This document shows positions 6,046-62,652 of a stretch of DNA of 64,000 bases, piece by piece. The position numbers and the translations under genes were made by a program. The stretch comes from Escherichia coli (GTDB lineage Bacteria; Pseudomonadota; Gammaproteobacteria; Enterobacterales; Enterobacteriaceae), in assembly GCF_024298765.1 (NCBI RefSeq), contig NZ_CP101210.1; one strand, 5' to 3'. Every line of letters begins with the position of its first letter. Position 1 is the first letter of the stretch. The notes beneath the pieces were generated by a model that was given only the letters and a program-made list of their open reading frames with translations, did no database searches and was not told where the DNA came from.

Positions 6046-6147
6046 TGCCTGATGCGCTACGCTTATCAGGCCTACGAGACTCCTGCAATATATTGAATTT
6101 GCATGTTTTTGTAGGCCGGATAAGGCGTTCACGCCGCATCCGGCAAG
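6046..6147. repeat. REP/BIME palindromic elements downstream of gyrB
   Basis: gcctgatgcgctacgcttatcaggcctac and gtaggccggataaggcgttcacgccgcatccggcaag match REP consensus. Confidence 0.6.
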
Positions 6148-16203: not shown

Positions 16204-16306
16204 TTACATCGTAGCCGATGAGGACGCGCCTGATGGGTGTTCTGGCTACCTGACCTGTCCATTGTGGAAGGTCTTAGATTCTCGCTGATTTCAGGAGCTA
16301 TTGATT

Positions 16307-16720
16307 ATGCGTAACTTTGATTTATCCCCGCTTTACCGTTCTGCTATTGGATTTGACCGTTTGTTTAACCACTTAGAAAACAACCAGAGCCAGAGTAATG
16401 GCGGCTACCCTCCGTATAACGTTGAACTGGTAGACGAAAACCATTACCGCATTGCTATCGCTGTGGCTGGTTTTGCTGAGAGCGAACTGGAAATTACCGC
16501 CCAGGATAATCTGCTGGTGGTGAAAGGTGCTCACGCCGACGAACAAAAAGAGCGCACCTATCTGTACCAGGGCATCGCTGAACGCAACTTTGAACGCAAA
16601 TTCCAGTTAGCTGAGAACATTCATGTTCGTGGTGCTAACCTGGTAAATGGTTTGCTGTATATCGATCTCGAACGCGTGATTCCGGAAGCGAAAAAACCGC
16701 GCCGTATCGAAATCAACTAA
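16307..16720 (+). CDS. ibpA: small heat-shock protein IbpA
   Basis: 137 aa starting [20 protein letters not shown]; alpha-crystallin domain. Confidence 0.95.
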
Positions 16721-26513: not shown

Positions 26514-26618
26514 ATATTGGACAAAACGCAAACTGTGATCGATACTCAACTATGCACTAAATACGTCAAAATTCGTGCCGAAATTGCGCGTTCTGCGCGG
26601 AACACGTATACTTTCAGT

Positions 26619-26693
26619 GTTGACATAATACAGTGTGCTTTGCGGTTACCAGCCGCAGGCGACTGACGAAACCTCGCTCCGGCGGGGTTTTTT
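26619..26693 (+). ncRNA. istR: IstR-1 antitoxin sRNA
   Basis: sigma-70 promoter TTGCGC-17nt-TATACT upstream; gttgacataatacagtgtgct complementary to tisAB leader at 26361-26381; terminator hairpin ccucgcuccggcgggg plus U-run. Confidence 0.65.
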
Positions 26694-40755: not shown

Positions 40756-41679
40756 TCACTCATCCCGCGCCGGACGATTTATTTTTCTGGCGCGGCGACG
40801 GGAATCCATTGAAATCAAAATCACTGATGACAGAATCAGAAGCGTTCCCAGCCAGTCCGGTAATGTGAATGTGATCCCCAGCAACAGCAAAGAGAGCAGC
40901 GCGCTACTTAATGGTTCTGCACAGCTCAAAATGCTGGCTTTTGGACCGCCAATTAATTGTGCTCCTTTCAGGTACAGACTAAATGTCAGGGACGTACCAA
41001 TGACCACCAAATAAAAAAACGCCAGAATCAAACTGCCGTTAACGACAAAGTTTGTCCCTTGTCTGGCATAAAAAGGCAACAGAATCAGACCGCCGATCAG
41101 CATACTCCAGCCGACGACAGGCAACGTGCCATAGCGGGCAATCAGCGTTGAGGGATAGGTGGTATAGAATGCCGCAGCAAATGCCGAGGCAATGCCCCAG
41201 AATAACGCGGCAGGAGAGATCGATAATGACGTCGGATTACCGTGTGTCACCAGTAAAAAAGTCCCGACCAGCGATGTCAAAATAGCGCAAAAAACCAGAA
41301 TGCCCGGGCGGGATTTACGCACCAGTGAGAACCAGGCGACGATAATCGTCGGTGAGAGGAATTGCAGCACCGTTGCCGTGGCAGCATTCGATTTTTCAAT
41401 GGTCAGTAAAAAGGTGAGCTGTACGGTTAGCGCGCCAACCACGGAAAAAATCAGCAGACTAATGGCATCTTTGTGATTGTTAATAATAGAAAAGATTTTA
41501 TCGCCATGAACAAATGACAGCGTCAGCAGAATCAAACCGGCGAATATCAAACGCGTCATAGTCAAAAACTGCGACGACATCTGGCTTTGCTCCATGATGT
41601 ATTGCGCGCAGACCCCTGAACTTCCCCACAACACGGCGGCAATCAGAACGTTCAGCATCCCCTTTCTGGTGGAACCCAT
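40756..41679 (-). CDS. yicL: EamA/DMT-family transporter YicL
   Basis: 307 aa from [21 protein letters not shown]; convergent with nlpA. Confidence 0.85.
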
Positions 41680-41845
41680 TTTTCCCTCTGCATACTGTTT
41701 TGTCTTTTCATCAATATACGTTAAGGATACCACTACCGATGACGGTGAGGGAGTAGAGTAATCAATCAGTTTTAGTGAATGGAGGAAATAATGACATATA
41801 ACAATTATTCATATGGTATTTAAAAAAACTCAATATGAAATTTAA

Positions 41846-42343
41846 TTATTTAATGTTCAATAACTCTATGGCTTTAGTATATTCATCAGGAATACCAATT
41901 GTAAAACAAGGTGCGGTATCGGTAGGTAGATTTTCTTTGTTATCATCATCCAGAACAGAAATAGAAAATTGTCGTTCAGGTGTTGATGTCGTGGTTATTA
42001 AAATGGTTGGATTAGGAAGAGAAACATATGTTGTATCATTTTTTAGTTTTATTTCTTTGATGTTTTCTTTGTTAATTTTATCAATCGTTTCAATAGAGAA
42101 AAAAGAATCATACCCCATTCGCAGTTCAATTTTATTATCGTTTTCGAATAAATAAATGGCATTATTGTTTTGAAGCAGATTGAATATATTGTTAGCGCAA
42201 GTTTGAGTTGCTAGCCAGGATGCCGCTGGATGACTCAAATTAATATGCGTGCTAAAGACTTTGACGCGACTACTTCTGTTTTTCTCTTTACTTTCAATTA
42301 AATGCCTAGCGCTTTTGGCTGCTTTACAAGTTCCATGCCCCAC
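41846..42343 (-). CDS. hypothetical protein (AT-rich orphan ORF; possible N-terminal membrane anchor)
   Basis: 165-aa ORF from GTG; in-frame upstream codons encode a hydrophobic stretch (IVIIKLIGTIFSVVIGVILIVSIL) with no canonical start before a stop. Confidence 0.35.
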   Translation of the reverse strand: MGHGTCKAAKSARHLIESKEKNRSSRVKVFSTHINLSHPAASWLATQTCANNIFNLLQNNNAIYLFENDNKIELRMGYDSFFSIETIDKINKENIKEIKLKNDTTYVSLPNPTILITTTSTPERQFSISVLDDDNKENLPTDTAPCFTIGIPDEYTKAIELLNIK

Positions 42344-42784
42344 ACGGCAAAAATAATCTCCTGAAAGGATACTTACAATCAGTATTACACCAATGACGAC
42401 AGAAAAAATAGTTCCGATGAGTTTGATGATGACAATCCTTGTGCAGTGTTATTTTCACCATGGATTATAATGTTATAGTGAAATTATTGCGCATGTAATT
42501 TTTCTTTGATTGTTTTAACATCACATTTATGCACTTCTTCATCTTTGTAGCAGGTAAAAGCCATATATGGATGGCTGGTGTCCGGTGCAGATAAAATGCA
42601 ACTTATTCTTGATAGCTTGAAAAAAAGAGAGGTTTTTTTGAGTGACGGTTGATAGTCGGTGGCAAGGAAGACGTTTTCGTACACTCGGCAAGAAAAACGA
42701 ATCACTCTGTCATACTACCAGATACATCAGCAGGGTCAGGTTGCTCAGAAATAAGCAGGATGGGGATCACTGAAGAGGCATTTT

Positions 42785-42804
42785 GGCGATCACAGGAGTC
42801 GAAT
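42785..42804 (-). repeat. selC 3-prime-end-like att remnant (island distal boundary)
   Basis: ggcgatcacaggagtcgaat contains gatcacaggagtcgaa, the reverse complement of the tRNA-Sec 3-prime end ttcgactcctgtgatc (from memory of selC). Confidence 0.5.
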
Positions 42805-42938
42805 ATGAGTGTTAATGTTTTGATTTTAAATGATTAATCTGTGTTGGATAAATGAGTAACCCCCATAAGAACCCCCAAATAACTTTGTGTAAGGGAATGA
42901 AGCTAAAATACACAATCGAATCAATTCTTAGAGCTTTA

Positions 42939-43865: not shown

Positions 43866-44288
43866 TCACCGGTTCTGGTACAGAAGCTGCAGTTGGCGCA
43901 GGGTACGGATATCCTCCCTGGCCTGTTCAATACAGGGCAACAGTGCTGCCGAATCCGTTTTGTCCTCATCGTTGTCAAAGATAATTTCCGATTCGCAGTC
44001 AATATTGTCCTGCAGCCACGCAATGAGGATATCCAGCGCTGTTTCAGTGGTTAATGGCATCACGCTCTGTATCACTGTATTGTCTTCCGGCAACTGATGA
44101 GGGCTGGCAGAAGTCGCCGGTGTTTCGGTAGCGTCATGTTCATCCACCACGCGGAGTGAATAACCGTTTTCAGCGACTTTGTTAATCAGTTCAGCGAGCT
44201 TAATACCATCGACGTCAACGACAATGCGCCCCATGTTCAGCGCCTGCGCATTAATGCTGTCGGCTTCCAGCGTCAGGGCCAGTTTCAT
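43866..44288 (-). CDS. YeeW-like protein
   Basis: 140-aa ORF immediately downstream of the CbtA-like toxin, with 4-bp overlap. Confidence 0.55.
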   Translation of the reverse strand: MKLALTLEADSINAQALNMGRIVVDVDGIKLAELINKVAENGYSLRVVDEHDATETPATSASPHQLPEDNTVIQSVMPLTTETALDILIAWLQDNIDCESEIIFDNDEDKTDSAALLPCIEQAREDIRTLRQLQLLYQNR

Positions 44289-44662
44289 TGTTTCGCCCCC
44301 GGATGTTTACCCAGGGTAATGTTATTTACCGTTCTGTAGTTGTCGCGTGTCATCAGGCCGGTTGCCCGGCGTGCCCGGAGGATATCAATACTGTTTATTA
44401 ACTGAGAACGGGTACAGGCGCTGAATCCCGGCTGGTCGGTACGTACCAGCGCGTATTTTTCAACGAGAAAGTTCACCGCATCACACAGTGAAATGCCCGC
44501 TTCAATATGCTGCTCAATCACACGTTCATCAGCGAACGGTGTGTCATTCAGCGCGAGGCCGTAGTGCTGGTCCAGTAACCGGGTGAGCAGTGTCTGCCAG
44601 ATGGTGACGGGAGACGGGCAGCACGATGCCTCCCGTACATGCGTGTCGGGTAATGTTTTCAT
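44285..44662 (-). CDS. cbtA: type IV toxin-antitoxin toxin, CbtA/YkfI/YpjF family
   Basis: 125 aa from MKTLPDTHVREASCCPSPVTIWQTLLTRLLDQHYGL...; strong match to remembered CbtA family sequence. Confidence 0.85.
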   Translation of the reverse strand: MKTLPDTHVREASCCPSPVTIWQTLLTRLLDQHYGLALNDTPFADERVIEQHIEAGISLCDAVNFLVEKYALVRTDQPGFSACTRSQLINSIDILRARRATGLMTRDNYRTVNNITLGKHPGAKQ

Positions 44663-44751
44663 AATGAAGATTTTCCTGATATGCAGAGATAAAAAATGGG
44701 ACAGTGGCGTGGTGAAAGCACCAGGCCGGAGCAGAAGGTTATTCTGGAGAG

Positions 44752-45120
44752 TTACTTTTTCGTTTCGGGCGTCGGATAAACAGCCATATAAACGTAGCCA
44801 CAACTGCCGAGGGTGTCGGCTTTGCAGGTCAGACCTTTTGCATACAGCGTGACGGTATGCTGATGGCGGGGATTCAGTTCACCGCTGGTGAGCATGAGTT
44901 CCAGTTGTTTCATCAGCAGCGGAAAGGCCTGGTCCAGGTGGTACGCATCTGCATCGCTGAACAGGCCTCTGATACCGGCGCGGTCGGCAAGGTAATGCAG
45001 GCGGTTACCCTCCTGCACCAGACGTGCCCCGAAACAGGGCGTCACGGTGCAGGGCAGCCCCCACCAGGGGCGGTCGTGATTGTCGTCGGGAAGCATTGTC
45101 CCGGAGAGTGCGTCTGACAC
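44752..45120 (-). CDS. cbeA: type IV toxin-antitoxin antitoxin, CbeA/YafW/YfjZ family
   Basis: 122 aa MSDALSGTMLPDDNHDRPWWGLPCTVTPCFGARLVQEGNRLHYLADRAGIRG...; directly upstream of toxin. Confidence 0.85.
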   Translation of the reverse strand: MSDALSGTMLPDDNHDRPWWGLPCTVTPCFGARLVQEGNRLHYLADRAGIRGLFSDADAYHLDQAFPLLMKQLELMLTSGELNPRHQHTVTLYAKGLTCKADTLGSCGYVYMAVYPTPETKK

Positions 45121-45282
45121 GATAAAATCCTCACAGAAAATCGGTTAAGAATGGTTTAACGATGACAGGTCAGCCGGCGCGCAGACCGCCTTCGGTAAAG
45201 GTGTATTCGTTTATGAGCAGGGCCTCATCCACAGCGGCGTCTGAGCTCAGCCAGTCGTACTCGTTTTCCGGGTGACGGAACA

Positions 45283-45504
45283 TCAGTTCAGGGTGACGCT
45301 CATCAGCCGGACATACGGGCCAAAACTGTCCTTACGACGTTCAGCAAACACGGCCAGCACACCGGGAATATCCTGTACTTCACGACCGGTATACGTCTCA
45401 GCACTGCCGTGCCAGCGGTACTTACCGGTGTAGAACGGAAAAAGACGGGATGCAGGATGTTGTTGGTGAATACGCATGGCTTCACCACGAGTGATAATTT
45501 TCAT
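45283..45504 (-). CDS. DUF987 protein (YeeT/YpjJ-like)
   Basis: 73 aa MKIITRGEAMRIHQQHPASRLFPFYTGKYRWHGSAETYTGREV... Confidence 0.75.
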   Translation of the reverse strand: MKIITRGEAMRIHQQHPASRLFPFYTGKYRWHGSAETYTGREVQDIPGVLAVFAERRKDSFGPYVRLMSVTLN

Positions 45505-45566
45505 AATGGGATACCTCTGAAGACAGAAGATAAAAGTGAAAACAGGTGTGATGTGGTTGTGACGGG

Positions 45567-46043
45567 TTAAAGCAGACCATGTTCGGCAAAGGAGAAAACC
45601 TGGTTGCCACCGACTATCAGATGGTCCGGCACCCGGATATCCACCAGGCCCAGTGCCTGTACCAGACGTTCGGTGATAAGCCGGTCTGCCTTACTGGGTG
45701 TGACTTCACCGGACGGGTGATTGTGCGCCAGCACCACGGCAGCGGCATTGTGGTACAGGGCGCGTTTAATCACTTCCCGGGGATGGACTTCCGTGCGGTT
45801 GATGGTGCCGGTGAAGAGGGTTTCACCGGCAATCAGCTGATTCTGGTTATTCAGATACAGTACCCGGAATTCTTCACGCTCCAGTCCCGCCATGTTCAGA
45901 ATCAGCCATTCCCGTGCCGCACGGGTGGAGGTGAAGGCCACGCCGGGTTCATGAAGATGACGGTCCAGGGTTTTCAGGGCCCGCTGAATAAGGCTGCGCT
46001 CGCCGGGCGTCATCGCTCCGGGCAGAAAGGAAAGCTGTTGCAT
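45567..46043 (-). CDS. RadC-like JAB-domain protein (YeeS/YkfG/YfjY family)
   Basis: 158 aa; JAMM motif HNHPSGEVTPSKAD. Confidence 0.85.
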   Translation of the reverse strand: MQQLSFLPGAMTPGERSLIQRALKTLDRHLHEPGVAFTSTRAAREWLILNMAGLEREEFRVLYLNNQNQLIAGETLFTGTINRTEVHPREVIKRALYHNAAAVVLAHNHPSGEVTPSKADRLITERLVQALGLVDIRVPDHLIVGGNQVFSFAEHGLL

Positions 46044-46054
46044 GGCCTCTCTCC

Positions 46055-46534
46055 TCAGTCAATGATGCGCATAATGGCGCTGCATTCCGGATGCTGCAGG
46101 GCGTAATCCCGCAGCCGGTAATAATGGACCGTCATGGCATAACACTCCGTACGACAGGCGTGATGACTGTACGTCATCAGACAGGCAGCAATGCCGGCGG
46201 CTTCCGGGCTCATTTCAGCGCGGTTACCGTTCATGGCACTGAACAGTACCCATGTTTCGTCATCATCGTCATCCGGTTCGGGTGCCATAAATGCGCCACC
46301 GTTGTTCAGGGTGTACAGATTCCAGATACCCCCGCAGTAGTCTTCACACAGACGGTCCATCCAGCCGAAGATACGGGGCTCCAGGGTCACCCACTGTGGA
46401 ATGAGGCCAAAATGCTGCGGCCAGAAGCTGATGCGCTGTTCATCAGGGACGAGGCTGGCAACCAGCTGAGGCGGATTATTCTCTGGTGTTGTAGCTGAAT
46501 AAATTGTGGGGGTATTCTGAGAAACGGTCTTCAT
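46055..46534 (-). CDS. antirestriction protein (ArdB/KlcA family, YfjX-like)
   Basis: 159 aa; acidic DDDDDE stretch; conserved position upstream of radC-like gene. Confidence 0.8.
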   Translation of the reverse strand: MKTVSQNTPTIYSATTPENNPPQLVASLVPDEQRISFWPQHFGLIPQWVTLEPRIFGWMDRLCEDYCGGIWNLYTLNNGGAFMAPEPDDDDDETWVLFSAMNGNRAEMSPEAAGIAACLMTYSHHACRTECYAMTVHYYRLRDYALQHPECSAIMRIID

Positions 46535-47472: not shown

Positions 47473-47500
47473 AAGGCCGCGTCTCCCGGAGAAGACGCGG
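47473..47500. other. intercistronic GC-rich stem-loop
   Basis: ggccgcgtct-cccggaga-agacgcggcc: perfect 10-bp stem between the DUF905 and DUF932 genes. Confidence 0.5.
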
Positions 47501-47523
47501 CCTGATGGATGAAATGAAGACGT

Positions 47524-48587: not shown

Positions 48588-49268
48588 TCACAGGTTAAAG
48601 GTGTTGATAAGTTTATGGATGAAAGAGAAATGTGGCAGGGCGGAGATAAAACGCTCTTCAGCGACCAGACTGTGGATGTGGCCTCTCCGTTCAAACCGTT
48701 CTGATGTCAGGCTGACTGATTTGATATCTGCCAGAGGAAAGACCTGCAGTTTTCCCTTCTGTAACGCGATCAGATACCAGCTACCGCTGTAATAAATGAG
48801 CCGGCAGGGCTCCAGTGACGGATACCATCGCTCAGTCATCAGAGAGATGTGGATACACTGTCTTATTGCCAGGATGAGTTGCGAGAAACACTCGGGGAAC
48901 GTTGCAGTGATATCCGGCGCCGGTAGCCAGATAAGGCAGGGAGAGGGCTCCTGGTTGTCGGTAAGACAGGTTATCAGTCGTCCGTTCCGGAGCGGAAGTA
49001 TCCGTGCGATCCCGGTATTCTGTATAAAAGAAAGCATTTCAGGGATCGCACCTGGGCTGCTCTGTCGTCTGAGGCTGTACCTGCCATTTCTGTACTCTAA
49101 ATCCAGGTGAACCAGACGCTGATGAAAATCGCGCTGTAAAGTACGTTCTGTAACGCCAAATTCATCTGACAGTGTTTTTAGTGACAGAGATTCTCCGGCC
49201 ATCAGTCGGCTGATAATGAGTGATAAGCGAACCGCCAGGCGATCATGCCGGGAACGATTATCAGACAT
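48588..49268 (-). CDS. HTH plus WYL-domain transcriptional regulator (YfjR-like)
   Basis: 226 aa; N-terminal DeoR-type HTH (KTLSDEFGVTERTLQRD); C-terminal WYL-like region. Confidence 0.65.
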   Translation of the reverse strand: MSDNRSRHDRLAVRLSLIISRLMAGESLSLKTLSDEFGVTERTLQRDFHQRLVHLDLEYRNGRYSLRRQSSPGAIPEMLSFIQNTGIARILPLRNGRLITCLTDNQEPSPCLIWLPAPDITATFPECFSQLILAIRQCIHISLMTERWYPSLEPCRLIYYSGSWYLIALQKGKLQVFPLADIKSVSLTSERFERRGHIHSLVAEERFISALPHFSFIHKLINTFNL

Positions 49269-49470: not shown

Positions 49471-50355
49471 TCAGAACAGACGCTCCCACAGTGTGATCAG
49501 CAGGTGGATAATGCGGTCCCGGGCTTTACGCAGAAGCTGTAACATCCAGGCCGGAAAACTGAACCGGGCAACGGCGTCGTCAAAACTTTTCCCGATGGCA
49601 TCACCAAAAGTCTGTTGTGCGTGTTTCCGGGCCTGTTCAGAGCGGTTTTCCCCCCTGATATGTGAATAAACTGCGCTGGTTGCCTGTGGTGGCAGCGCGT
49701 GGATCATCAGTGACACCAGCGCTGGAAGGTTCCAGCCTGCAGGTGCGGCTACAGGGAGTACCGGAAATGATGAAGGGAACAGGGTGGCCACCCGGGCTGT
49801 TACTGTCGCCAGTGAGAGTTCCTGGTGACGGGACGGGCATTTTTCTGTGGCATTCCATTCTTCAGCAGGAAACATGCGATCGGCATGGCTGAGAACAAAC
49901 AGAAAGCGCGAGGGATCTGCGCCCTCATTCAGTAAAAACTGATGCATGGCAATATCGGCAGCATACGCACGTTCATCACTCCGCAGGATCCAGATAATCA
50001 GATCCAGTTCCGGCAGTAACTGACGATAAAGCGCTCGGTATTCCTGATCATGCTGCGGTGTTTCACCAATGCCGGGCAGATCGACCAGCGTCATTCTGCG
50101 TTCACCGAGCTGCAGGGTAAGACGATGAGCCTGGCGGGTGCAGCCGTTCAGGGGATGCGTGGCGCAGATACGGGACTGAAAAATGGCATTACACAGGCTG
50201 CTCTTGCCGGTGCCGGATTTACCCATAATGCCAATCACGGGCTCGTAATGAATAACACCGTGGAGATGTTCAAGGATTTTCTGGCGTATTTCTTCAGGAA
50301 GAAACGTCAGATATGATTTCACTTGCGCGGAGAGGGAAGAATTGCTGAATGGCAT
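49471..50355 (-). CDS. GTPase (YfjP/YkfA/YeeP family)
   Basis: 294 aa; P-loop GKSGTGKSS, DLPG switch, ribosome-associated GTPase-like. Confidence 0.8.
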   Translation of the reverse strand: MPFSNSSLSAQVKSYLTFLPEEIRQKILEHLHGVIHYEPVIGIMGKSGTGKSSLCNAIFQSRICATHPLNGCTRQAHRLTLQLGERRMTLVDLPGIGETPQHDQEYRALYRQLLPELDLIIWILRSDERAYAADIAMHQFLLNEGADPSRFLFVLSHADRMFPAEEWNATEKCPSRHQELSLATVTARVATLFPSSFPVLPVAAPAGWNLPALVSLMIHALPPQATSAVYSHIRGENRSEQARKHAQQTFGDAIGKSFDDAVARFSFPAWMLQLLRKARDRIIHLLITLWERLF

Positions 50356-50455: not shown

Positions 50456-51679
50456 ATGGCTAAAAACAAAGGTATTTGTCGGAATAAAAAATGCAGTAAT
50501 CCTGTTTCAGAATTTGATGAGGCAAATGCCTTAAGGTTATGCGATGATCATTATAAGCTATGGAAGCGAAATAAAGAGAATCGTCGGGTCAGGAATATTT
50601 GTCGTATAATCAGTAAATATGACAAAAGTCTGGACCGGGAGATATTTTATGGAGTAAGAGATGCTGCAAAAAATAAAACGGGAAAGAGAATTATTGAGGA
50701 CGCAAAAATATTACATCAATGCCGTGCCTCAAAGCAAGTAAGAAAAAGTTTTCACAAGGGTGTGCTTCGGTCACGGGAATGGCTTAATACACAGGAGTTA
50801 CTGAGCAGAAAACATATATCTGTTACAGGTGAACTATTTAAATTTTACATAAAAGATATTATCAGATTATATTGCTATAAGTTTCTCTACAGCAGAGAAT
50901 ATCTTAATGAAAACGCATACAAAAAACGATATCAGAGTGATATTCACCCCAGAAAAGTTAATGTTCCGATACTGCAACTTGAAGTTGCATGGATAAATAA
51001 TAATTGCCGTTCAAGTGATTCAAGCACTGATATTATTATCCTTCCGAGGATGATAAGAAGAATGGTTGTATTTAATTATACGAAGATAAATAAACAATTA
51101 GAGAAATTGTTAGGGGGGATAGCACGAAAACAAACCTCAGAAAGGAATAAAGGCGGTCTCTATACCAGAATAAAAAAAGAAAGTGACTTTCTTTCTATGG
51201 ATAGATTTATGGTGGAAATAGAAAATATCATAAGGCCTGAAAGGTTTCCGACATCAATTTATCCAGTCTTTTCACATTCATTTATTGAACGAGAGCTTCC
51301 GCTACTGAATCTTGCTCGATCACAGTATAAAAGAGCAATAAGTAAAAAAGTGGCGAATTCAATTTTTTATACTTTGCAAAAAACTAACGTAGCATTATGG
51401 CTACATCTTGAAATGTTTGCTCTGGTGGCATTCATTAAACTGTATACAGGAAAAGGTTTTGAATTCATAAAAAACATGTGTGCATTTATCGATTATAATA
51501 ATGGGATAATAAAATCCACACATGAAGAACTACTGGGTGAAATTAAGCATAACATTCAGGTTAATTTGAAGGTGAACCCTGATAATTTTCCTGAGCTAAT
51601 AAATATATACAATTCATGTTTTAGTAAAAATATATTTTTATATGATATTAATGATGGTAATTTTAAATGGTGTTCATGA
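50456..51679 (+). CDS. hypothetical protein, Lys-rich with N-terminal Cys/His cluster (candidate novel defense/abortive-infection gene)
   Basis: 407-aa ORF; purine-rich RBS; very AT-rich codon usage; C8-x4-C13...C29-x2-H32; divergent from GTPase gene. Confidence 0.6.
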   Translation: MAKNKGICRNKKCSNPVSEFDEANALRLCDDHYKLWKRNKENRRVRNICRIISKYDKSLDREIFYGVRDAAKNKTGKRIIEDAKILHQCRASKQVRKSFHKGVLRSREWLNTQELLSRKHISVTGELFKFYIKDIIRLYCYKFLYSREYLNENAYKKRYQSDIHPRKVNVPILQLEVAWINNNCRSSDSSTDIIILPRMIRRMVVFNYTKINKQLEKLLGGIARKQTSERNKGGLYTRIKKESDFLSMDRFMVEIENIIRPERFPTSIYPVFSHSFIERELPLLNLARSQYKRAISKKVANSIFYTLQKTNVALWLHLEMFALVAFIKLYTGKGFEFIKNMCAFIDYNNGIIKSTHEELLGEIKHNIQVNLKVNPDNFPELINIYNSCFSKNIFLYDINDGNFKWCS

Positions 51680-52842: not shown

Positions 52843-53373
52843 TTAAGCTACATTGTTGTTATGACTGACAGGATTGTTTTCTTCCCCTGACTCTGGGCTT
52901 AACAGTCCCTGGCGTTGTAGATATTCACTGACTGACATTCCAGAACTACGGATCCTGTCAGAGATTTTACGAAATTGATCCTTCCATTCTGCAGGTAATT
53001 TCTTAATTTGTCTGACTTTACAGGCTACACTGTACGGGGTTCGCCCTAGTTTCTCTGCCAGCCAGAAAAGGTGTTTACCAATTTCATCGTCCGGTACATC
53101 CTCCAGAACATCTCGCAATAAACTCTCGTCTGCCTCATTCCATGCCACACCAGCATTTGGGAAACGAGGATCGATCTCTCTTTCCTTCTTCTCCTTCTTA
53201 CTTTGCTCTTTTCGGGATGATACAGATACGACAGAACGTTCTTTTACCGCTGTAATTGCCATAACTGCATTGAGCAGAGATCTGCGCTCCACATCGTTCA
53301 GCATTTTTCCTTCACAGATCAAATCATTCAGGATGTCAATGACTAGATTCAGACTTTCTTCTGTTAGCTTCAT
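52843..53373 (-). CDS. hypothetical protein with putative HTH
   Basis: 176-aa ORF; AAGG RBS 8 nt upstream; charged KE-rich linker; HTH-like LAEKLGRTPYSVACKVRQIKK. Confidence 0.55.
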   Translation of the reverse strand: MKLTEESLNLVIDILNDLICEGKMLNDVERRSLLNAVMAITAVKERSVVSVSSRKEQSKKEKKEREIDPRFPNAGVAWNEADESLLRDVLEDVPDDEIGKHLFWLAEKLGRTPYSVACKVRQIKKLPAEWKDQFRKISDRIRSSGMSVSEYLQRQGLLSPESGEENNPVSHNNNVA

Positions 53374-54884: not shown

Positions 54885-55790
54885 CTATATTTCCAGACAT
54901 CTGTTATCACTTAACCCATTACAAGCCCGCTGCCGCAGATATTCCCGTGGCGAGCGATAACCCAGCGCACTATGCGGATGCCATTCGTTATAATGCTCGA
55001 ACGCCTCTGCAAGGTTCTTTGCTGCCGTTAACCCGTCTGGTTTGGGCATGATACTGATGTAGTCACGCTTTATCGTTTTCACGAAGCTCTCTGCGATTCC
55101 GTTACTCTCCGGACTCCGCACCGCCGTGTTCTTCGGTTCAAGTCCCAACATCCGGGCGAACTGGCGTGTTTCATTAGCCCGGTAGCATGAACCATTATCC
55201 GTCAGCCACTCCACTGGAGACGACGGAAGATCGTTGCCGAAGCGGCGTTCCACCGCTCCCAGCATGACGTCCTGTACTGTTTCACTGTTGAAGCCGCCGG
55301 TAGTGACCGCCCAGTGCAGTGCCTCACGATCACAGCAGTCCAGCGCGAACGTGACACGCAGTCTCTCTCCGTTATCACAGCAGAACTCGAACCCGTCAGA
55401 GCACCATCGCTGATTGCTTTCTTTCACGGCCACTCTGCCTGTATGTGCCCGTTTCGATGGCGGTACAGCAGGTTTTCGCTCAAGCAACAGCGCATTCTGG
55501 CGCATGATCCGGTAAACACGTTTGGCATTGATCGCAGGCATACCATCAAGTTCGGCCTGTCTGCGAAGCAGCACCCATACCCGACGATAACCATATGTGG
55601 GCAGCTCTCCGATAACATGGTGTATACGGAGAAGCACATCCGTATCATCAGTGTGACGGCTGCGGCGACCATCTTTCCAGTCATCGGTTCGTCTGAGAAT
55701 GACGTGCAACTGCGCACGCGACACCCGGAGACAACGGCTGACTAAGCTTACTCCCCATCCCCGGGCAATAAGGGCGCGTGCGCTATCCAC
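54885..55790 (-). CDS. insD: IS2 transposase InsD (OrfB)
   Basis: 301 aa [34 protein letters not shown]...; DDE integrase core. Confidence 0.92.
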
Positions 55791-56113
55791 TTTTTTGCAC
55801 GCCCATATTCAACGGCTTCTTTAAGGAGTTCATTTTCCATCGTTTTTTTGCCGAGCAGGCGCTGGAGTTCTTTAATCTGCTTCATGGCAGCAGCAAGTTC
55901 AGAGGCAGGAACGACCTGTTCTCCTGCGGCCACAGCAGTAAGACTTCCCTCCTGGTATTGCTTGCGCCAGAGAAATAACTGGCTGGCTGCCACACCGTGT
56001 TGCCGGGCAACAAGGGAGACCGTCATTCCCGGTTCAAAACTCTGCTGAACAATAGCGATCTTTTCCTGTGTAGTACGCCGTCTGCGTTTCTCCGGTCCTA
56101 AGACATCAATCAT
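55748..56113 (-). CDS. insC: IS2 InsC (OrfA)
   Basis: 121 aa from [29 protein letters not shown]. Confidence 0.9.
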
Positions 56114-56261
56114 CTGCTCTCCAATGACTAGTCTAAAAACTAGTATTAAGACTATCACTTAAATAAGTGATATTGGTTGTCTGGAGATTCAGGGGGGCCA
56201 GTCTACTGAATGAGCGAAATGTGATTTACCTTCTTTTCTGTTCATTGTAAATTCCCTCTTT

Positions 56262-56290
56262 GCTAACGCAAATCATTATCATTACGCCTT
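56262..56290 (+). promoter_or_regulatory. putative Fur box in receptor promoter
   Basis: aatcattatcattac contains AATCATTATC, an exact match to the 3-prime half of the Fur consensus GATAATGATAATCATTATC. Confidence 0.45.
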
Positions 56291-56306
56291 TGGCAAAGGG
56301 AAATTT

Positions 56307-58355
56307 ATGAAGAACAAATATATCATTGCTCCGGGCATTGCCGTGATGTGTTCTGCAGTTATATCATCAGGTTATGCCAGTTCTGATAAAAAAGAAGATA
56401 CGCTTGTTGTTACTGCCTCCGGGTTCACTCAGCAGCTCAGAAATGCCCCGGCCAGTGTCTCAGTCATTACTTCAGAACAACTGCAAAAAAAACCGGTTTC
56501 AGATCTGGTCGATGCAGTAAAAGATGTTGAAGGGATTAGTATCACTGGTGGGAATGAAAAACCGGATATCAGTATACGTGGTCTAAGTGGCGATTACACG
56601 CTGATTCTGGTCGATGGACGACGTCAGAGCGGTCGGGAATCCAGACCAAACGGCAGCGGCGGTTTTGAAGCCGGATTTATCCCTCCTGTGGAAGCAATTG
56701 AACGCATTGAAGTGATCCGTGGCCCTATGTCTTCCCTGTATGGTTCTGATGCCATCGGAGGGGTCATTAATATCATAACCAAACCAGTTAATAACCAAAC
56801 ATGGGATGGCGTACTTGGACTTGGGGGGATTATTCAGGAACATGGGAAATTTGGTAACTCAACCACAAATGACTTCTATCTGTCAGGCCCATTGATTAAG
56901 GATAAACTTGGTCTTCAGCTATATGGAGGAATGAACTATCGCAAGGAAGATAGTATCTCTCAGGGAACACCGGCAAAAGATAATAAGAATATAACGGCAA
57001 CGCTCCAGTTTACTCCGACTGAAAGCCAGAAGTTTGTTTTTGAATATGGAAAAAATAACCAGGTGCATACATTAACACCTGGTGAGTCTCTCGATGCCTG
57101 GACTATGCGGGGAAATCTTAAACAACCAAACAGTAAAAGAGAAACGCATAATTCACGTAGTCACTGGGTAGCAGCATGGAATGCCCAGGGCGAAATACTG
57201 CATCCTGAAATTGCTGTTTATCAGGAGAAAGTTATTCGTGAGATTAAATCAGGTAAAAAAGATAAATATAATCATTGGGATCTTAATTACGAGTCAAGAA
57301 AACCGGAAATAACCAACACAATCATAGATGCAAAAGTGACGGCATTTCTGCCGGAAAATGTACTGACCATCGGAGGTCAATTTCAGCATGCAGAGCTCCG
57401 TGATGACTCAGCCACGGGTAAAAAAACGACAGAAACACAGTCTGTTTCAATTAAACAGAAAGCTGTTTTTATAGAAAATGAATATGCAGCAACGGATTCT
57501 CTCGCCCTGACTGGAGGACTGCGTCTCGATAATCATGAAATCTATGGCAGTTACTGGAATCCAAGATTGTACGCTGTTTATAACCTGACCGATAATCTCA
57601 CACTCAAAGGGGGGATCGCAAAAGCATTTCGGGCTCCTTCAATTCGTGAGGTGAGTCCTGGATTTGGAACACTGACGCAGGGTGGTGCCTCTATTATGTA
57701 TGGAAACAGGGACCTGAAACCGGAGACCAGTGTAACCGAAGAGATCGGTATTATTTATAGTAATGATAGTGGTTTTTCGGCGAGCGCGACGCTGTTTAAT
57801 ACTGATTTTAAAAATAAGTTGACCAGTTACGATATAGGTACAAAAGATCCAGTCACCGGGTTAAACACTTTTATTTATGATAATGTAGGTGAGGCAAATA
57901 TCAGAGGGGTGGAGCTTGCAACTCAGATTCCTGTGTATGATAAATGGCATGTATCTGCAAACTATACATTTACTGACTCTCGTCGAAAAAGTGATGACGA
58001 AAGTCTCAATGGCAAGTCGCTGAAAGGGGAACCTCTGGAAAGAACTCCCAGACATGCAGCCAATGCAAAACTGGAATGGGATTACACTCAGGATATTACA
58101 TTTTATTCATCTCTGAATTATACGGGAAAACAAATCTGGGCAGCACAAAGAAATGGTGCTAAGGTTCCCCGCGTTCGTAATGGATTCACATCTATGGATA
58201 TTGGTCTAAATTACCAGATTCTGCCAGACACGCTGATTAATTTTGCCGTTCTTAACGTCACAGACAGAAAGAGCGAGGATATCGATACCATTGATGGTAA
58301 CTGGCAGGTCGATGAAGGACGCCGTTATTGGGCTAATGTAAGAGTATCCTTCTGA
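56307..58355 (+). CDS. ireA: TonB-dependent outer-membrane siderophore receptor (IreA-like)
   Basis: 682 aa; signal peptide; TonB box DTLVVTAS; plug domain; C-terminal beta-barrel ending in F; symbol from memory of IreA length and N-terminus. Confidence 0.7.
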   Translation: MKNKYIIAPGIAVMCSAVISSGYASSDKKEDTLVVTASGFTQQLRNAPASVSVITSEQLQKKPVSDLVDAVKDVEGISITGGNEKPDISIRGLSGDYTLILVDGRRQSGRESRPNGSGGFEAGFIPPVEAIERIEVIRGPMSSLYGSDAIGGVINIITKPVNNQTWDGVLGLGGIIQEHGKFGNSTTNDFYLSGPLIKDKLGLQLYGGMNYRKEDSISQGTPAKDNKNITATLQFTPTESQKFVFEYGKNNQVHTLTPGESLDAWTMRGNLKQPNSKRETHNSRSHWVAAWNAQGEILHPEIAVYQEKVIREIKSGKKDKYNHWDLNYESRKPEITNTIIDAKVTAFLPENVLTIGGQFQHAELRDDSATGKKTTETQSVSIKQKAVFIENEYAATDSLALTGGLRLDNHEIYGSYWNPRLYAVYNLTDNLTLKGGIAKAFRAPSIREVSPGFGTLTQGGASIMYGNRDLKPETSVTEEIGIIYSNDSGFSASATLFNTDFKNKLTSYDIGTKDPVTGLNTFIYDNVGEANIRGVELATQIPVYDKWHVSANYTFTDSRRKSDDESLNGKSLKGEPLERTPRHAANAKLEWDYTQDITFYSSLNYTGKQIWAAQRNGAKVPRVRNGFTSMDIGLNYQILPDTLINFAVLNVTDRKSEDIDTIDGNWQVDEGRRYWANVRVSF

Positions 58356-58372
58356 GAGTATATAAAGACAAC

Positions 58373-58393
58373 CTGAGGCCGTGAGCCTCAGGT
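58373..58393 (+). terminator. stem-loop downstream of receptor gene
   Basis: cctgaggccgtgagcctcagg; no clear T-run. Confidence 0.4.
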
Positions 58394-59736
58394 ACCAGTG
58401 TAGTAATCAGTAATGTCAGTTTCCAGGTTGTAATGCTTTTAATCTTGATTAAAATAATCTTAATAATTTAAACTTGTTAAATATCGATGATTTTAATTTG
58501 AGAGCGTTCAGAATTCTGTGTCACGTTAAAAATTCTACAGCGTCATCACATTATTCAGCCGCCCTTCAAAATAAATGGCTAACTGCGACAATGTCAAATT
58601 CCAGCTTTGGATGGGCATTGTCCATTTCTCCTGTGCGTTCATCAGTCCCAGATAAAGTAGCTTCAACAGGCTGTTTTCATTCGGGAAAGCACCTTTAGGT
58701 TTTGGTCAGTTTCCTGAACTGGCGGTGGACTGATTCTATCGCGTTGGTTGTGTAGATCACCTTGCGGATATTCGCCGGATAGCGGAAGTACGCTGACAGA
58801 TTTTCCCTCTTGCGGCGCCAGGACTGGAGCACCACCGGATATTGCTGCCCCCGTTTCGCTTCCAGCTCATCCAGCGCCGTTTCCGACACCGCACGATACA
58901 CTGGCTTCAGGTCGGCCATGAACGCTTTATGGTGTTTTGACGCCACATATTTAATCGAGTTACGTATCTGGTGAATGACGCACAACTGTACCTCTGTCTG
59001 CGGATAAATGCTGTTTATCGCTTCAGGGAAGCCGGTCAGCCCATCCACGCAGGCAATCAGAATGTCTTCAACGCCACGGTTTTGCAGATCACTTAATACT
59101 GACAGCCAGAAGTTAGCGCCTTCGCTTTCCGACAAATACAGGCCCAGGACTTCTTTTTTGCCTTCCAGATTCAGCGCCAGTACGGTATAAACTGCCTTGC
59201 TCTGATAACACCCATCTTCGCGGATTTTATAGTGAATGGCGTCCAGCCAGACGAAGGGATAAACCTTTTCCAGCGGGCGCTGCTGCCACTGTTTTAACTC
59301 AGGAATGACTTTATCGGTAACCGCACTGATGGTAGCCGTGGAAACACTGAAGGCATATAAATCTTCGATCTCCCGGCTGATATCCTGGTAGCTCATCCCC
59401 AGCGCGAACAGGCGAATGATCTTGCGCTCGAGCTCATCAGACAGCGTGGTCTGGTGCTTCTTCACCAGTTGGGGTTCAAAATAACCATTACGATCACGTG
59501 GAGTTGCCAGCTCAAAGCTGCCAGTCGGGGCTTTAATGGTCTTTTTTCCGGAACCATTTTTACGATTGACTTCAAAATCCTGAGCCAGATGGGAGTCGAG
59601 TTCAGCGGCCAGAGCGGTTTCTGTTAACTGTTTGATTAATGGCGTTAGGATACCATCCTTGCCGGTTAATGCTTGGCCGGACTGAACCGCCCCGGAAATC
59701 CTGGAGACTAAACTCCCTGAGAAAGAGGTAAACAGG

Positions 59737-60063
59737 ATGACTAAAAATACTCGTTTTTCCCCCGAAGTCCGTCAACGGGCAGTTCGTATGGTTCTGGAAA
59801 GTCAGGGCGAATATGACTCACAATGGGCGGCAATTTGTTCCATTGCTCCAAAGACTGGCTGTACGCCGGAGACTCTGCGTGTCTGGGTTCGCCAGTATGA
59901 GCGGGATACCGGGGGCGGAGATGGAGGGCTCACCAGTGCTGAACGTCAGCGTCTGAAAGAGCTGGAACGTGAAAATCGTGAACTGCGCCGCAGCAACAAT
60001 ATCCTTCGCCAGGCTTCCGCTTATTTTGCGAAGGCGGAGTTCGACCGCCTCTGGAAAAAGTGA
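59737..60063 (+). CDS. IS629 OrfA
   Basis: 108 aa [39 protein letters not shown]... Confidence 0.88.
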
Positions 60064-60950
60064 TGGCACTGCTGGATAAGCTGCGTGAGCAGTACGGGGT
60101 CAGACCGGTATGCAGTGAACTGCATATTGCCCCGTCAACGTATTACCACTGTCAGCAACAGCGACATCATCCTGATAAACGCAGTGCACATGCACAGCGC
60201 GATGACTGGCTGAAGAGAGAGATACAGCGCGTATACGATGAAAATCATCAGTGTACCGTGTGCGTAAAGTCTGGCGCCAGTTGTTACGGGAAGGAATCAG
60301 GATGGCCAGATGTACAGTGGTGCGCCTCATGGCGGTTATGGGACTTGCCGGTGTTCTCCGGGGTAAAAAGGTCCGCACTACCGTCAGCCGGAAAACCGTT
60401 GCCGCAGGTGACCGCGTAAACCGTCAGTTCGTGGCAGAACGTCCTGACCAGCTGTGGGTGGCTGATTTTACTTACGTCAGCACATGGCAGGGCTTCGTCT
60501 ATAGTGGCGTTCATCATTGATGTATTTGCCGGATATATCGTGGGGTGGTGGGTCTCATCGTCTATGGAAACGACATTCGTGCTGGATGCGCTGGAGCAGG
60601 CGTTGTGGGCCCGCCGTCCGTCCGGCACCATCCATCACAGCGATAAAGGCTCTCAGTATGTGTCACTGGCCTATATGGAGCGATTAAAAGAAGCAAAACT
60701 GCTGGCATCAACAGGGAGTACAGGCGACTCGTATGACAACGCGATGGCGGAGAGCATCAATGGTCTTTACAAAGCGGAGGTAATACACCGTAAGAGCTGG
60801 AAAAACCGTGCAGAAGTGGAACTGGCCACACTCACGTGGGTGGACTGGTATAACAATCGACGATTGCTGGGAAGGCTGGGCCATACTCCTCCGGCAGAAG
60901 CAGAAAAAGCTTATTATGCTTCCATCGGAAACAATGATCTGGCAGCCTGA
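60060..60950 (+). pseudogene. IS629 OrfB transposase, frameshifted
   Basis: DDE transposase sequence split over three overlapping frames (60060-60419, 60251-60520, 60504-60950). Confidence 0.8.
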
Positions 60951-61097
60951 GTTCACAGATAAAACACTCTCCAGGAAACCCGGGGCGGTTCAGGACTGGA
61001 GTGCCTTAAGCGCTTTATCGAAATCGAAGGGTTGGGACATGTGTCATTCCTTTTTGGTTGTATATTACTGGAATGACACAGAATTTCTAACACTCCC

Positions 61098-62085
61098 TTT
61101 AATTTAGGTTTATTACTATTATTATACTTACTCTCTTTTTTACATGACCTCAATCTTTACGATTATATTCACTCTATCTTTACACATTCCATTACTCTTA
61201 TCCTCATCCAATTATATTCATGTCCTTCTCTAATCTTCCTTGTCACCATTATCATAATATCCACTTCTTCCCTCATTCAATCATAATTACTGTAATTCAT
61301 ACGTTACTCAGATAAGTTATTCTCTACAGCTACGCTATTGTTGATATCCATCTGTTCTCATTTTCAGTGAAACAGTAATTGATTTTAATTTATCCATCAT
61401 GAACTGTATTTGCTTAACAATGATTGTTTATCTGAAGTGTTTTAACTATTCTGGTTGGAAACAATTTCTCTGTCATCAAAGATTAACTGAATGTTTACTC
61501 TTTGATAAGGTATCCATGGTTCCGTCATGTTTAACAGCGCAGGATAAACAACAGAATTAACAGAGTGAATTTCTGATTATATTTGTTGCCGGTTGTATTG
61601 TTTAAGGTACTGGGTGAAAATTATTCATCCATTGTATGTTGTCTTATGCTATCGTGTGTCGTTAACGTTCATATCCTGGAAAACAGATTGAATAAGCGCG
61701 TGTGAGTTTATTGTGGTGACCTTATAAACGTTTTTTCAGACTCACTGAGAGCAAATTTACAAATCATGAGCTTATAGTTGTAATATGTTTCCTAACCGCC
61801 TGGCAGCGGGATTACAGTTCGTATTTTTCTGTATTTCACTGTGTTGTATTGAATCTGTATTTTCTTCGCACCTCGTTTATCTCATCTCTATAGACAATGC
61901 CATCAGATAACTCATACCCTTCAGCACAACGCTGTGTGTCGTTAATAATCCGTCGTATCCATTCTGTTACAGCATGCCTGATAAATACCATCTGTAAGTT
62001 ATTACCGTTTTAGATCTGATTATGAGCGAAAGCATTAATTCGCTCACAGAGCTTAAAACATCATTAACTTTCAGGAGTCATCAAC
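61098..62085. other. about 1 kb ORF-free AT-rich spacer with G-depleted tract
   Basis: No ORF of 60 aa or more on either strand; 61108-61300 is pyrimidine-rich on the plus strand with about six G. Confidence 0.6.
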
Positions 62086-62652
62086 ATGCCTAAATCTTAC
62101 ACACCAAACTGGTTTTTTACCGCTTTACTTGACAATCACATCAATCAAATGATGGCACGCTATTCCTGCCTGCGGGCCTTACGGATGGATTTCTTCTACA
62201 GGAAGGATACGCCTGATTTCTTACAACCTGATCATCGTTGGCTTGAATTACAACTGCGTATGCTGCTGGAGCAGGTTGAACAGTTTGAAAATATGGTTGG
62301 CTTCTTCTGGGTGATTGAATGGACGGTTGATCATGGTTTTCATGCGCATGTGGTCTTCTGGCTCGATCGTCAGAGGGTTAAAAAAATATATCCCTTTGCG
62401 GAGCGGATTACGGAATGCTGGCGGTCTATTACGCATAACAGCGGTTCGGCACACCGCTGTACATATCAGCCGCATTATACATACAACATCAACATTCCTG
62501 TGCGCCACAACGATCCTGAAAGCATCGATAATATTCGCGGTGCCCTGCATTATCTGGCAAAAGAAGAGCAAAAAGACGGGCTGTGTGCCTACGGCTGCAA
62601 TGAAGTTCCTGAACGTCCTGCTGCAGGGCGTCCTCGTAAGCCTCACTTCTGA
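62086..62652 (+). CDS. inovirus Gp2-like protein (YagK/YfjJ family paralogue)
   Basis: 188 aa; FHAHVVFWLDRQ motif region analogous to HYHVILLLNKD of the 54043 gene. Confidence 0.6.
   Translation: MPKSYTPNWFFTALLDNHINQMMARYSCLRALRMDFFYRKDTPDFLQPDHRWLELQLRMLLEQVEQFENMVGFFWVIEWTVDHGFHAHVVFWLDRQRVKKIYPFAERITECWRSITHNSGSAHRCTYQPHYTYNINIPVRHNDPESIDNIRGALHYLAKEEQKDGLCAYGCNEVPERPAAGRPRKPHF

What the first reader, a model, noticed from the sequence alone, without database searches (positions are those of the whole stretch)
44285..45120. Intact type IV toxin-antitoxin pair (CbtA/CbeA family)
Both ORFs are full length and closely match the remembered YeeV/YeeU (CbtA/CbeA) sequences. The spacing of about 90 bp with antitoxin upstream is canonical. 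CbtA toxins inhibit FtsZ and MreB polymerisation.
Basis: partly seen in the sequence, partly recalled or inferred. Interest (0 to 1): 0.35.

Follow-up and report, generated by a model that had tools for sequence, protein, structure and literature searches.

The report
Ordinary intact CbtA/CbeA toxin-antitoxin pair

Summary

**What is there (minus strand)**
- Antitoxin gene at 45120..44752: GTG start, 122 aa, full Pfam CbeA_antitoxin match, 93% identical to K-12 CbeA.
- An 89-bp spacer.
- Toxin gene at 44662..44285: 125 aa, full Pfam CbtA_toxin match, 89% identical to K-12 CbtA, 58% to YkfI and 63% to YpjF.
- No premature stops. The FtsZ-contact residue F65 is kept.

**How common it is**
- The same 836 bp occurs at 100% identity in 18 complete E. 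coli genomes, where RefSeq already names both genes.
- Related copies are in 4928 of 5426 genomes, with a median of 3 per genome.

**Context**
- The pair lies in the usual P4-like island gene string next to yicL: DUF905, DUF932, antirestriction, RadC, DUF987, antitoxin, toxin, DUF5983.

**Small points**
- Residue 15 of the toxin is Cys. In K-12 CbtA the R15C change abolishes MreB binding, but Cys15 is the majority state in the family and YpjF, which has Cys15, still binds MreB.
- Both genes flanking the pair are deletion remnants, while the pair itself is intact.

Toxicity, rescue and the type IV mechanism are inferred from K-12 work and were not tested here.

Verdict: already known, low interest.

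The parts
44752..45120 (-). cbeA/yeeU-type antitoxin gene (GTG start, 122 aa)
   Evidence: Pfam PF06154, E 4.5e-54. 93% identical to K-12 CbeA. Matches the solved YeeU structure 2H28 at E 3.5e-79. RefSeq names the identical gene cbeA, WP_065793167.1. The exact protein is seen on 557 contigs.
44663..44751 (-). 89-bp spacer between antitoxin and toxin, with an AGGAA ribosome-binding site at 44677-44673
   Evidence: Near-identical to the 88-bp K-12 cbeA-cbtA spacer (the 88 nt is also stated in PMC5371832). No notable RNA fold (z = -1.14). No Rfam hit.
44285..44662 (-). cbtA/yeeV-type toxin gene (ATG start, 125 aa, TGA stop)
   Evidence: Pfam PF06755, 1-112/112, E 3.2e-63. 89% identical to K-12 CbtA. 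F65 is kept and position 15 is Cys. RefSeq WP_000854694.1. The exact protein is seen on at least 1000 contigs.
43866..44288 (-). Downstream 140-aa ORF whose ATG overlaps the toxin stop (ATGA). It is an in-frame fusion of the DUF5983 N-terminal domain to the 65-aa protein that RefSeq names 'DUF957'.
   Evidence: Pfam DUF5983_N matches residues 4-57 only. Alignment to an intact 162-aa DUF5983 gene plus a separate 65-aa gene shows about 275 bp missing. RefSeq splits it into a DUF5983 pseudogene and a DUF957 gene.
45170..45283 (-). 37-aa ORF in the 162-bp gap upstream of the antitoxin. It is the C-terminal remnant of a 214-aa gene that lies between DUF987 and the antitoxin in other islands.
   Evidence: 81% identical to residues 178-214 of WP_096858933.1. 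K-12 and strain AR_0085 have a shorter gap here.
45283..46534 (-). Upstream genes on the same strand, belonging to the conserved island module: DUF987/YeeT-like (45283-45504), RadC-like JAB/YeeS-like (45567-46043) and an antirestriction protein (46055-46534)
   Evidence: Pfam. Same order as K-12 CP4-44, CP4-6 and CP4-57. About 95-100% DNA identity to CP4-44 over yeeS-yeeT.

Best explanation
This is an intact member of the CbtA/CbeA (YeeV/YeeU) toxin-antitoxin family, carried in a P4-like genomic island next to yicL in an E. coli chromosome.

Shown here: two full-length genes on the same strand with the family's domains, its gene order, its spacer and its neighbouring genes.

Inferred from K-12 experiments:
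- When the toxin is in excess it binds FtsZ, through a surface that includes F65, and blocks cell division.
- It probably also binds MreB and blocks elongation, giving growth arrest and misshapen cells.
- The upstream antitoxin counteracts this by binding and bundling FtsZ and MreB filaments rather than by binding the toxin. That is the 'type IV' mode.

The pair is most likely transcribed with the upstream genes of the island (RadC-like, DUF987).
For: - Domain matches span the whole Pfam models and score far above the cut-offs.
- Identity to the experimentally studied K-12 proteins is 89% and 93%, with no stops or truncations.
- The antitoxin matches the solved YeeU structure 2H28 over residues 1-121.
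- F65 is present and invariant in 57 of 58 aligned family sequences; the remaining one has a gap there. PMC5624674 shows that F65S abolishes FtsZ binding in CbtA, YkfI and YpjF.
- Against K-12 cbtA there are 25 codons with synonymous changes and 15 with amino-acid changes. Of the 15, 11 fall in codons 6-27 and 3 in the last six codons. Only one (T37A) falls in codons 28-119, which indicates purifying selection on the core.
- Gene order and spacer match CP4-44.
- The identical locus is annotated the same way in RefSeq.
- The type IV mechanism is as summarised in PMC5624674.
Against: - Nothing here measures expression, toxicity or rescue.
- The simple consensus scan found no sigma-70-like site on the minus strand near the pair, so the promoter is not located.
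- Position 15 is Cys. In K-12 CbtA, R15C specifically removes MreB binding, so dual targeting is less certain than FtsZ targeting.
- Both flanking genes are deletion remnants, which shows that the island is decaying.
Confidence: 0.92

Rival explanations
1. Same family, but this allele inhibits only cell division. With Cys14-Cys15 in place of Ser14-Arg15 it would bind FtsZ but not MreB, and would give filaments rather than lemon-shaped cells.
For: - In K-12 CbtA, R15C alone abolishes the MreB two-hybrid signal and turns lemon-shaped cells into filaments (PMC5624674).
- Outside the N-terminal segment the window toxin is almost identical to K-12 CbtA. It is therefore closer to a natural 'CbtA-R15C' than YkfI or YpjF are.
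Against: - YpjF has Cys15 and still binds MreB, and C15R changed nothing in YpjF or YkfI.
- The change is not a single substitution. The whole of codons 6-27 is a different haplotype with 11 amino-acid differences.
- Cys15 is the majority state, found in 43 of 58 family sequences.
Confidence: 0.2
2. The genes are intact, but the antitoxin neutralises the toxin by binding it directly or by controlling its expression (type II-like) rather than by protecting the cytoskeleton (type IV).
For: - No direct evidence from this work.
- The type IV model rests mainly on one in-vitro study, cited.
- In Erwinia a CbtA homologue did not show the expected target interactions (section heading in PMC6521040).
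Against: The published summary says that CbeA binds FtsZ and MreB, enhances bundling, and also neutralises unrelated FtsZ inhibitors. That is hard to explain by toxin binding.
Confidence: 0.12
3. The pair is a silent relic. The ORFs happen to be intact but are no longer expressed or functional in this decaying island.
For: - The genes on both sides are deletion remnants.
- The island is full of IS elements and pseudogenes.
- No promoter-like site was found near the pair on its strand.
Against: - Both genes keep good ribosome-binding sites.
- The toxin core shows many synonymous changes and almost no amino-acid changes against K-12.
- K-12 CP4-44 is just as decayed, and its pair is functional.
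Confidence: 0.08

Closest known systems
CbtA/CbeA (YeeV/YeeU) of cryptic prophage CP4-44, E. coli K-12
   Same: - Same Pfam families.
- Same lengths: 125 against 124 aa, and 122 against 122 aa.
- Same spacer: 89 against 88 bp.
- Same upstream yeeS and yeeT-type genes and the same downstream yeeW-type gene.
- 89% and 93% protein identity, and about 92-100% DNA identity over most of the operon.
   Different: - Codons 6-27 of the toxin are a different haplotype: DTHVREASCCPSPVT against VLPGQAASSRPSPVE. DNA identity there is 26 of 50, and Cys15 replaces Arg15.
- The antitoxin starts with GTG.
- The gap upstream of the antitoxin is 162 bp against 73 bp, because a different part of a lost 214-aa gene remains.
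- The yeeW-type ORF reads through into the next gene, where K-12 has a stop.
- The chromosomal site is different: next to yicL.
YkfI/YafW (CP4-6) and YpjF/YfjZ (CP4-57), E. coli K-12
   Same: - Same two families and the same island gene order.
- F65 is conserved.
- Cys at toxin position 15, as in the window.
   Different: - Only 58-66% identity.
- The toxins are shorter (113 and 109 aa), and the antitoxins lack the 14-residue N-terminal extension.
- The spacer is 20 bp.
The identical RefSeq locus in other E. coli genomes (for example NZ_CP041304.1 MSHS 133 and NZ_CP126952.1 APEC O78:H4)
   Same: 100% identity over the 836 bp, in several genomes at the same distance from dnaA, and already annotated as a CbtA family toxin plus cbeA.
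   Different: Nothing within the pair itself.

Membership tests
CbtA_toxin family (PF06755) | Full-length match to the family model above the curated cut-off | tested here: met
   211.2 bits against a cut-off of 25, model positions 1-112 of 112.
CbtA_toxin family (PF06755) | Conserved Phe65, needed for FtsZ binding in CbtA, YkfI and YpjF | tested here: met
   F65 is present and is found in 57 of 58 aligned family sequences. Its role is shown in PMC5624674.
CbtA_toxin family (PF06755) | Lies immediately downstream of a CbeA/YeeU-family gene on the same strand | tested here: met
   The antitoxin ends at 44752 and the toxin starts at 44662, both on the minus strand.
CbtA_toxin family (PF06755) | Toxic on overexpression, with a cell-shape defect, and neutralised by the partner | not testable with these tools
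   Needs an expression and rescue assay. Shown only for the K-12 proteins.
CbtA_toxin family (PF06755) | Direct binding to FtsZ (H6/H7 loop) and to MreB (flat face) | not testable with these tools
   Needs a two-hybrid or biochemical test. No solved toxin structure exists to compare with.
K-12 CbtA allele in the strict sense | Arg15, the MreB-binding determinant identified in K-12 CbtA (not a feature of the family as a whole) | tested here: not met
   Position 15 is Cys. Among family sequences 43 have Cys and 15 have Arg. So this is a family member but not the K-12 allele.
CbeA_antitoxin family (PF06154) | Full-length match to the family model above the curated cut-off | tested here: met
   181.7 bits against a cut-off of 27, model positions 1-100 of 101.
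CbeA_antitoxin family (PF06154) | Sequence match to the solved YeeU/YfjZ structures | tested here: met
   2H28 at E 3.5e-79 over residues 1-121, 2INW at 2.7e-76, 2JN7 and 2EA9 at about 1e-41.
Type IV toxin-antitoxin system (mechanistic class) | The antitoxin acts on the toxin's targets (FtsZ and MreB bundling) and does not bind the toxin | not testable with these tools
   Known only from K-12 CbeA, as summarised in PMC5624674.
P4-like island accessory module (as in CP4-44, CP4-6, CP4-57) | Same-strand gene string: DUF905, DUF932, antirestriction, RadC-like, DUF987, antitoxin, toxin, DUF5983 | tested here: met
   Pfam on ten neighbouring genes. Same order in K-12 and other strains.

The most novel reading that the evidence does not exclude
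The widespread 'DTHVREAS-C' N-terminal haplotype carried by this toxin, here with Cys14-Cys15, might be a natural specificity switch. It could make this otherwise CbtA-identical toxin a pure FtsZ inhibitor, or change its affinity for MreB, so that the several CbtA copies in one genome are not redundant.
Probability: 0.15. Interest if true: 0.3.

Novelty: already known. Interest (0 to 1): 0.07.

Why it matters
It matters little beyond correct annotation. The pair is one more copy of a family found in about 90% of complete E. coli genomes, usually in several copies. Two modest points follow from it.

- The toxin's variation is concentrated in a short N-terminal segment that includes the one residue known to control MreB binding in K-12 CbtA. 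That makes a cheap and specific experiment possible.
- The pair stays intact while both neighbouring genes have been eroded by deletions. This fits the usual picture of toxin-antitoxin genes outlasting the element that brought them.

Tried and rejected
- Checked whether the mechanical 172-aa ORF (TTG at 44803) is the real toxin gene. It is not. The ATG at 44662 gives the family's length, has a ribosome-binding site, and is the RefSeq start.
- Looked for an RNA element in the unusually long 89-bp spacer. There is no Rfam hit and no significant fold (z = -1.14).
- Looked for a promoter or terminator framing the pair. The consensus scan found fewer promoter-like sites than the shuffled sequences gave, and none on the minus strand near the pair.
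- Searched NCBIfam and PADLOC. Neither protein got a hit, which reflects what those libraries contain rather than anything about the genes.
- Searched for a solved toxin structure. There is none.
- Considered that Cys15 marks a defective or unusual toxin. Rejected as a general claim, because Cys15 is the majority state and occurs in YkfI and YpjF.
- Looked for a second copy in the window. There is none.
- Looked for the island's tRNA attachment site. The window has no tRNA gene. The next 48 kb of a related genome is a long, IS-rich composite island with no integrase gene annotated.

Full report
**1. The observation**

The interval 44285-45120 holds two genes on the minus strand.

The upstream gene is the ORF 45120..44752. 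It starts with GTG and encodes 122 aa. A GAGGA sits 7 nt before the start (sequence).

For the downstream gene, the mechanical ORF list gives a 172-aa ORF starting at a TTG at 44803. The real gene starts at the ATG at 44662 (MKTLPDTHV..., 125 aa, TGA stop at 44287-44285). An AGGAA sits 10 nt upstream.

The two genes are 89 bp apart (44663-44751). The only thing left unsaid was that everything lies on the minus strand.

**2. Identity of the two proteins**

Pfam gives end-to-end matches. CbtA_toxin (PF06755) covers positions 1-112 of 112 at 211 bits, E 3.2e-63. CbeA_antitoxin (PF06154) covers positions 1-100 of 101 at 182 bits, E 4.5e-54.

I fetched the three K-12 pairs from NC_000913.3 and aligned them.
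- The toxin is 89% identical to CbtA, 58% to YkfI and 63% to YpjF.
- The antitoxin is 93% identical to CbeA, 63% to YafW and 66% to YfjZ.

The antitoxin matches the solved YeeU structure 2H28 over residues 1-121 (E 3.5e-79). It also matches 2INW, and more distantly the YfjZ structures 2JN7 and 2EA9. No toxin of this family has a solved structure.

There are no premature stops or truncations.

**3. How common and how well known it is**

The 836 bp match 18 complete E. coli genomes at 100% identity. In several of them the match lies at the very same coordinates counted from dnaA.

Related copies occur in 4928 of 5426 genomes, with a median of 3 places per genome and up to 14.

RefSeq already annotates the identical genes as 'TA system toxin CbtA family protein' (WP_000854694.1) and 'cbeA' (WP_065793167.1). 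The exact toxin sequence is on at least 1000 contigs and the exact antitoxin on 557.

A 2023 survey also reports a variable, often high, CbtA copy number across E. coli lineages (PMC10790755).

**4. Context**

The window begins with a 467-aa ORF at position 1, which is dnaA: the Rfam hit at 511-591 is the antisense RNA of the dnaA mRNA. It is the first 64 kb of an E. coli chromosome.

The core genes end at yicL (40756-41679). From there an island begins.

On the minus strand the island carries the string DUF905, DUF932, antirestriction protein, RadC-like JAB protein, DUF987, antitoxin, toxin, DUF5983, DUF4942. This is the order found in the K-12 cryptic prophages CP4-44, CP4-6 and CP4-57 (PMC5371832).

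DNA identity to CP4-44 is about 92-100% per 50-bp window over yeeS, yeeT, cbeA and cbtA. There are two exceptions, described in sections 5 and 6.

Further into the island come IS elements, ireA and, in a related genome, the fec and pgt operons. The window contains no tRNA gene.

**5. Variation within the pair**

Against K-12 cbtA there are 25 codons with synonymous changes and 15 with amino-acid changes. Eleven of the 15 lie in codons 6-27 and three in the last six codons. Only T37A falls in codons 28-119.

At the DNA level, 44601-44650 is only 26/50 identical to K-12, while the flanks are above 90%.

Among 58 aligned sequences (the window toxin, K-12 CbtA and 56 full-length cluster representatives), the N-terminus comes in two main haplotypes. 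One is VLPGQAASSRPSPVE, the K-12 type with Arg15. The other is DTHVREASxCPSPVT, the window type with Cys15. Cys15 is the majority state (43 against 15), and F65 is present in 57 of the 58, the other having a gap there.

This matters because Heller et al. showed three things (PMC5624674).
- F65S abolishes FtsZ binding in all three K-12 toxins.
- R15C abolishes MreB binding of CbtA and gives filaments instead of lemon-shaped cells.
- YkfI and YpjF naturally have Cys15, YpjF still binds MreB, and C15R changes nothing in either.

So FtsZ targeting can be inferred with confidence for the window toxin. MreB targeting is likely but less certain.

**6. The neighbours are decayed and the pair is not**

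Upstream, the gap between the DUF987 gene and the antitoxin is 162 bp. It holds a 37-aa ORF (45170-45283) whose ATG overlaps the DUF987 stop codon. That ORF is 81% identical to the last 37 residues of a 214-aa protein. In other strains this protein is encoded between DUF987 and the antitoxin, and is annotated there as 'antitoxin of toxin-antitoxin stability system' or as hypothetical. K-12 and strain AR_0085 have other, shorter remnants at the same place.

Downstream, the 140-aa ORF 43866-44288 overlaps the toxin stop through the sequence ATGA. It consists of the DUF5983 N-terminal domain fused in frame to the 65-aa protein that RefSeq names DUF957.
- Compared with an intact 162-aa DUF5983 gene followed by a separate 65-aa gene, about 275 bp are missing.
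- K-12 shares this deletion but has a TAA where the window has GAA. That stop ends YeeW at 64 aa.
- K-12 also lacks a further 93 bp.

RefSeq splits the window ORF into a pseudogene plus a DUF957 gene.

**7. Mechanism: what is shown and what is inferred**

Shown here: gene integrity, family membership, conserved F65, ribosome-binding sites, the conserved spacer and the operon-like arrangement.

Inferred from K-12 work: the toxin binds the H6/H7 loop of FtsZ and the flat face of MreB and so blocks division and elongation. The antitoxin binds and bundles FtsZ and MreB filaments instead of binding the toxin, which is the type IV mode (summary). YafW and YfjZ behave likewise as neutralisers.

Nothing was found in the spacer that suggests extra regulation. 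It has no Rfam family and no significant fold. No promoter-like site was found next to the pair on its strand, so transcription from further upstream in the island is the most likely arrangement. That last point is an inference.

**8. Verdict**

The finding is real and correctly interpreted. It is an already known and already annotated member of a very common family, so interest is low.

The only open question specific to this allele is whether its N-terminal haplotype (Cys14-Cys15) changes MreB targeting. A simple expression and two-hybrid experiment would settle that.

Noticed in passing
window 45170-45283 (-): An unannotated 37-aa ORF whose ATG overlaps the stop of the DUF987 gene. It is the C-terminal remnant (81% identity) of a 214-aa protein with no Pfam hit at E<=0.01. 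In other E. coli islands that protein is encoded between DUF987 and the antitoxin, and RefSeq sometimes names it 'antitoxin of toxin-antitoxin stability system'. Its function is unknown, and it may be a third component of the module.
   Followed up: partly
window 43866-44288 (-): A continuous 140-aa ORF that fuses the DUF5983 N-terminal domain in frame to the 65-aa 'DUF957' protein after an internal loss of about 275 bp. RefSeq splits it into a pseudogene and a gene. A 2026 preprint (10.64898/2026.06.09.728211) describes DUF5983 fused to, or next to, AntiFam entry ANF00264 beside cbtA and proposes a programmed frameshift. If that entry is this 65-aa protein, which I did not test, then here the fusion is a plain in-frame deletion. 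K-12 has a stop codon at the same junction.
   Followed up: partly
window 44601-44650 (toxin codons 5-20): A sharply divergent patch, 26/50 identical to K-12 cbtA against more than 90% in the flanks. Across the family this segment occurs as two discrete N-terminal haplotypes, which suggests recombination or diversifying selection on a short segment. The segment includes the residue that determines MreB binding in K-12 CbtA.
   Followed up: partly
protein cluster of the toxin: Several members of the toxin's 90% identity cluster carry the source name 'YeeU family antitoxin', and the exact antitoxin sequence also carries the name 'toxin CbtA' in some sources. The toxin and antitoxin names appear to be swapped in some public records.
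   Followed up: no
window 41680-42938: In strain AR_0085, setC and a rhuM fragment lie between yicL and the DUF4942 gene. In the window setC is absent, and a 165-aa ORF (41846-42343, -) with no Pfam or PADLOC hit lies there instead.
   Followed up: partly
window 47474-47503 (-): A strong terminator-like hairpin (13-pair stem, 9 G-C pairs, followed by a T run) between the DUF905 and DUF932 genes. It may divide the island's minus-strand gene string into two transcription units.
   Followed up: no
window 50456-51679 (+) and 52843-53373 (-): Two island ORFs of 407 aa and 176 aa, annotated as hypothetical proteins, with no Pfam hit at E<=0.01 and no PADLOC hit at E<=0.001. Their neighbours include a GTPase-family protein (49471-50355) with a weak PADLOC LeoBC match and an HTH-WYL regulator (48588-49268).
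   Followed up: no
window 26564-26693, 511-591, 16241-16313, 6068-6110, 60018-60134: Rfam hits elsewhere in the window: istR (the antitoxin RNA of the tisB/istR type I system), AsdA antisense to dnaA, a ROSE_2 thermoregulator, the ES036 sRNA, and an ALIL pseudoknot inside an IS3-family element. All are known features.
   Followed up: no
window 54885-62288: The siderophore receptor gene ireA (56307-58355) is bracketed by IS2, IS256-family, IS3-family and ISVsa5 copies or fragments. This part of the island is an IS-bounded virulence cargo block.
   Followed up: no
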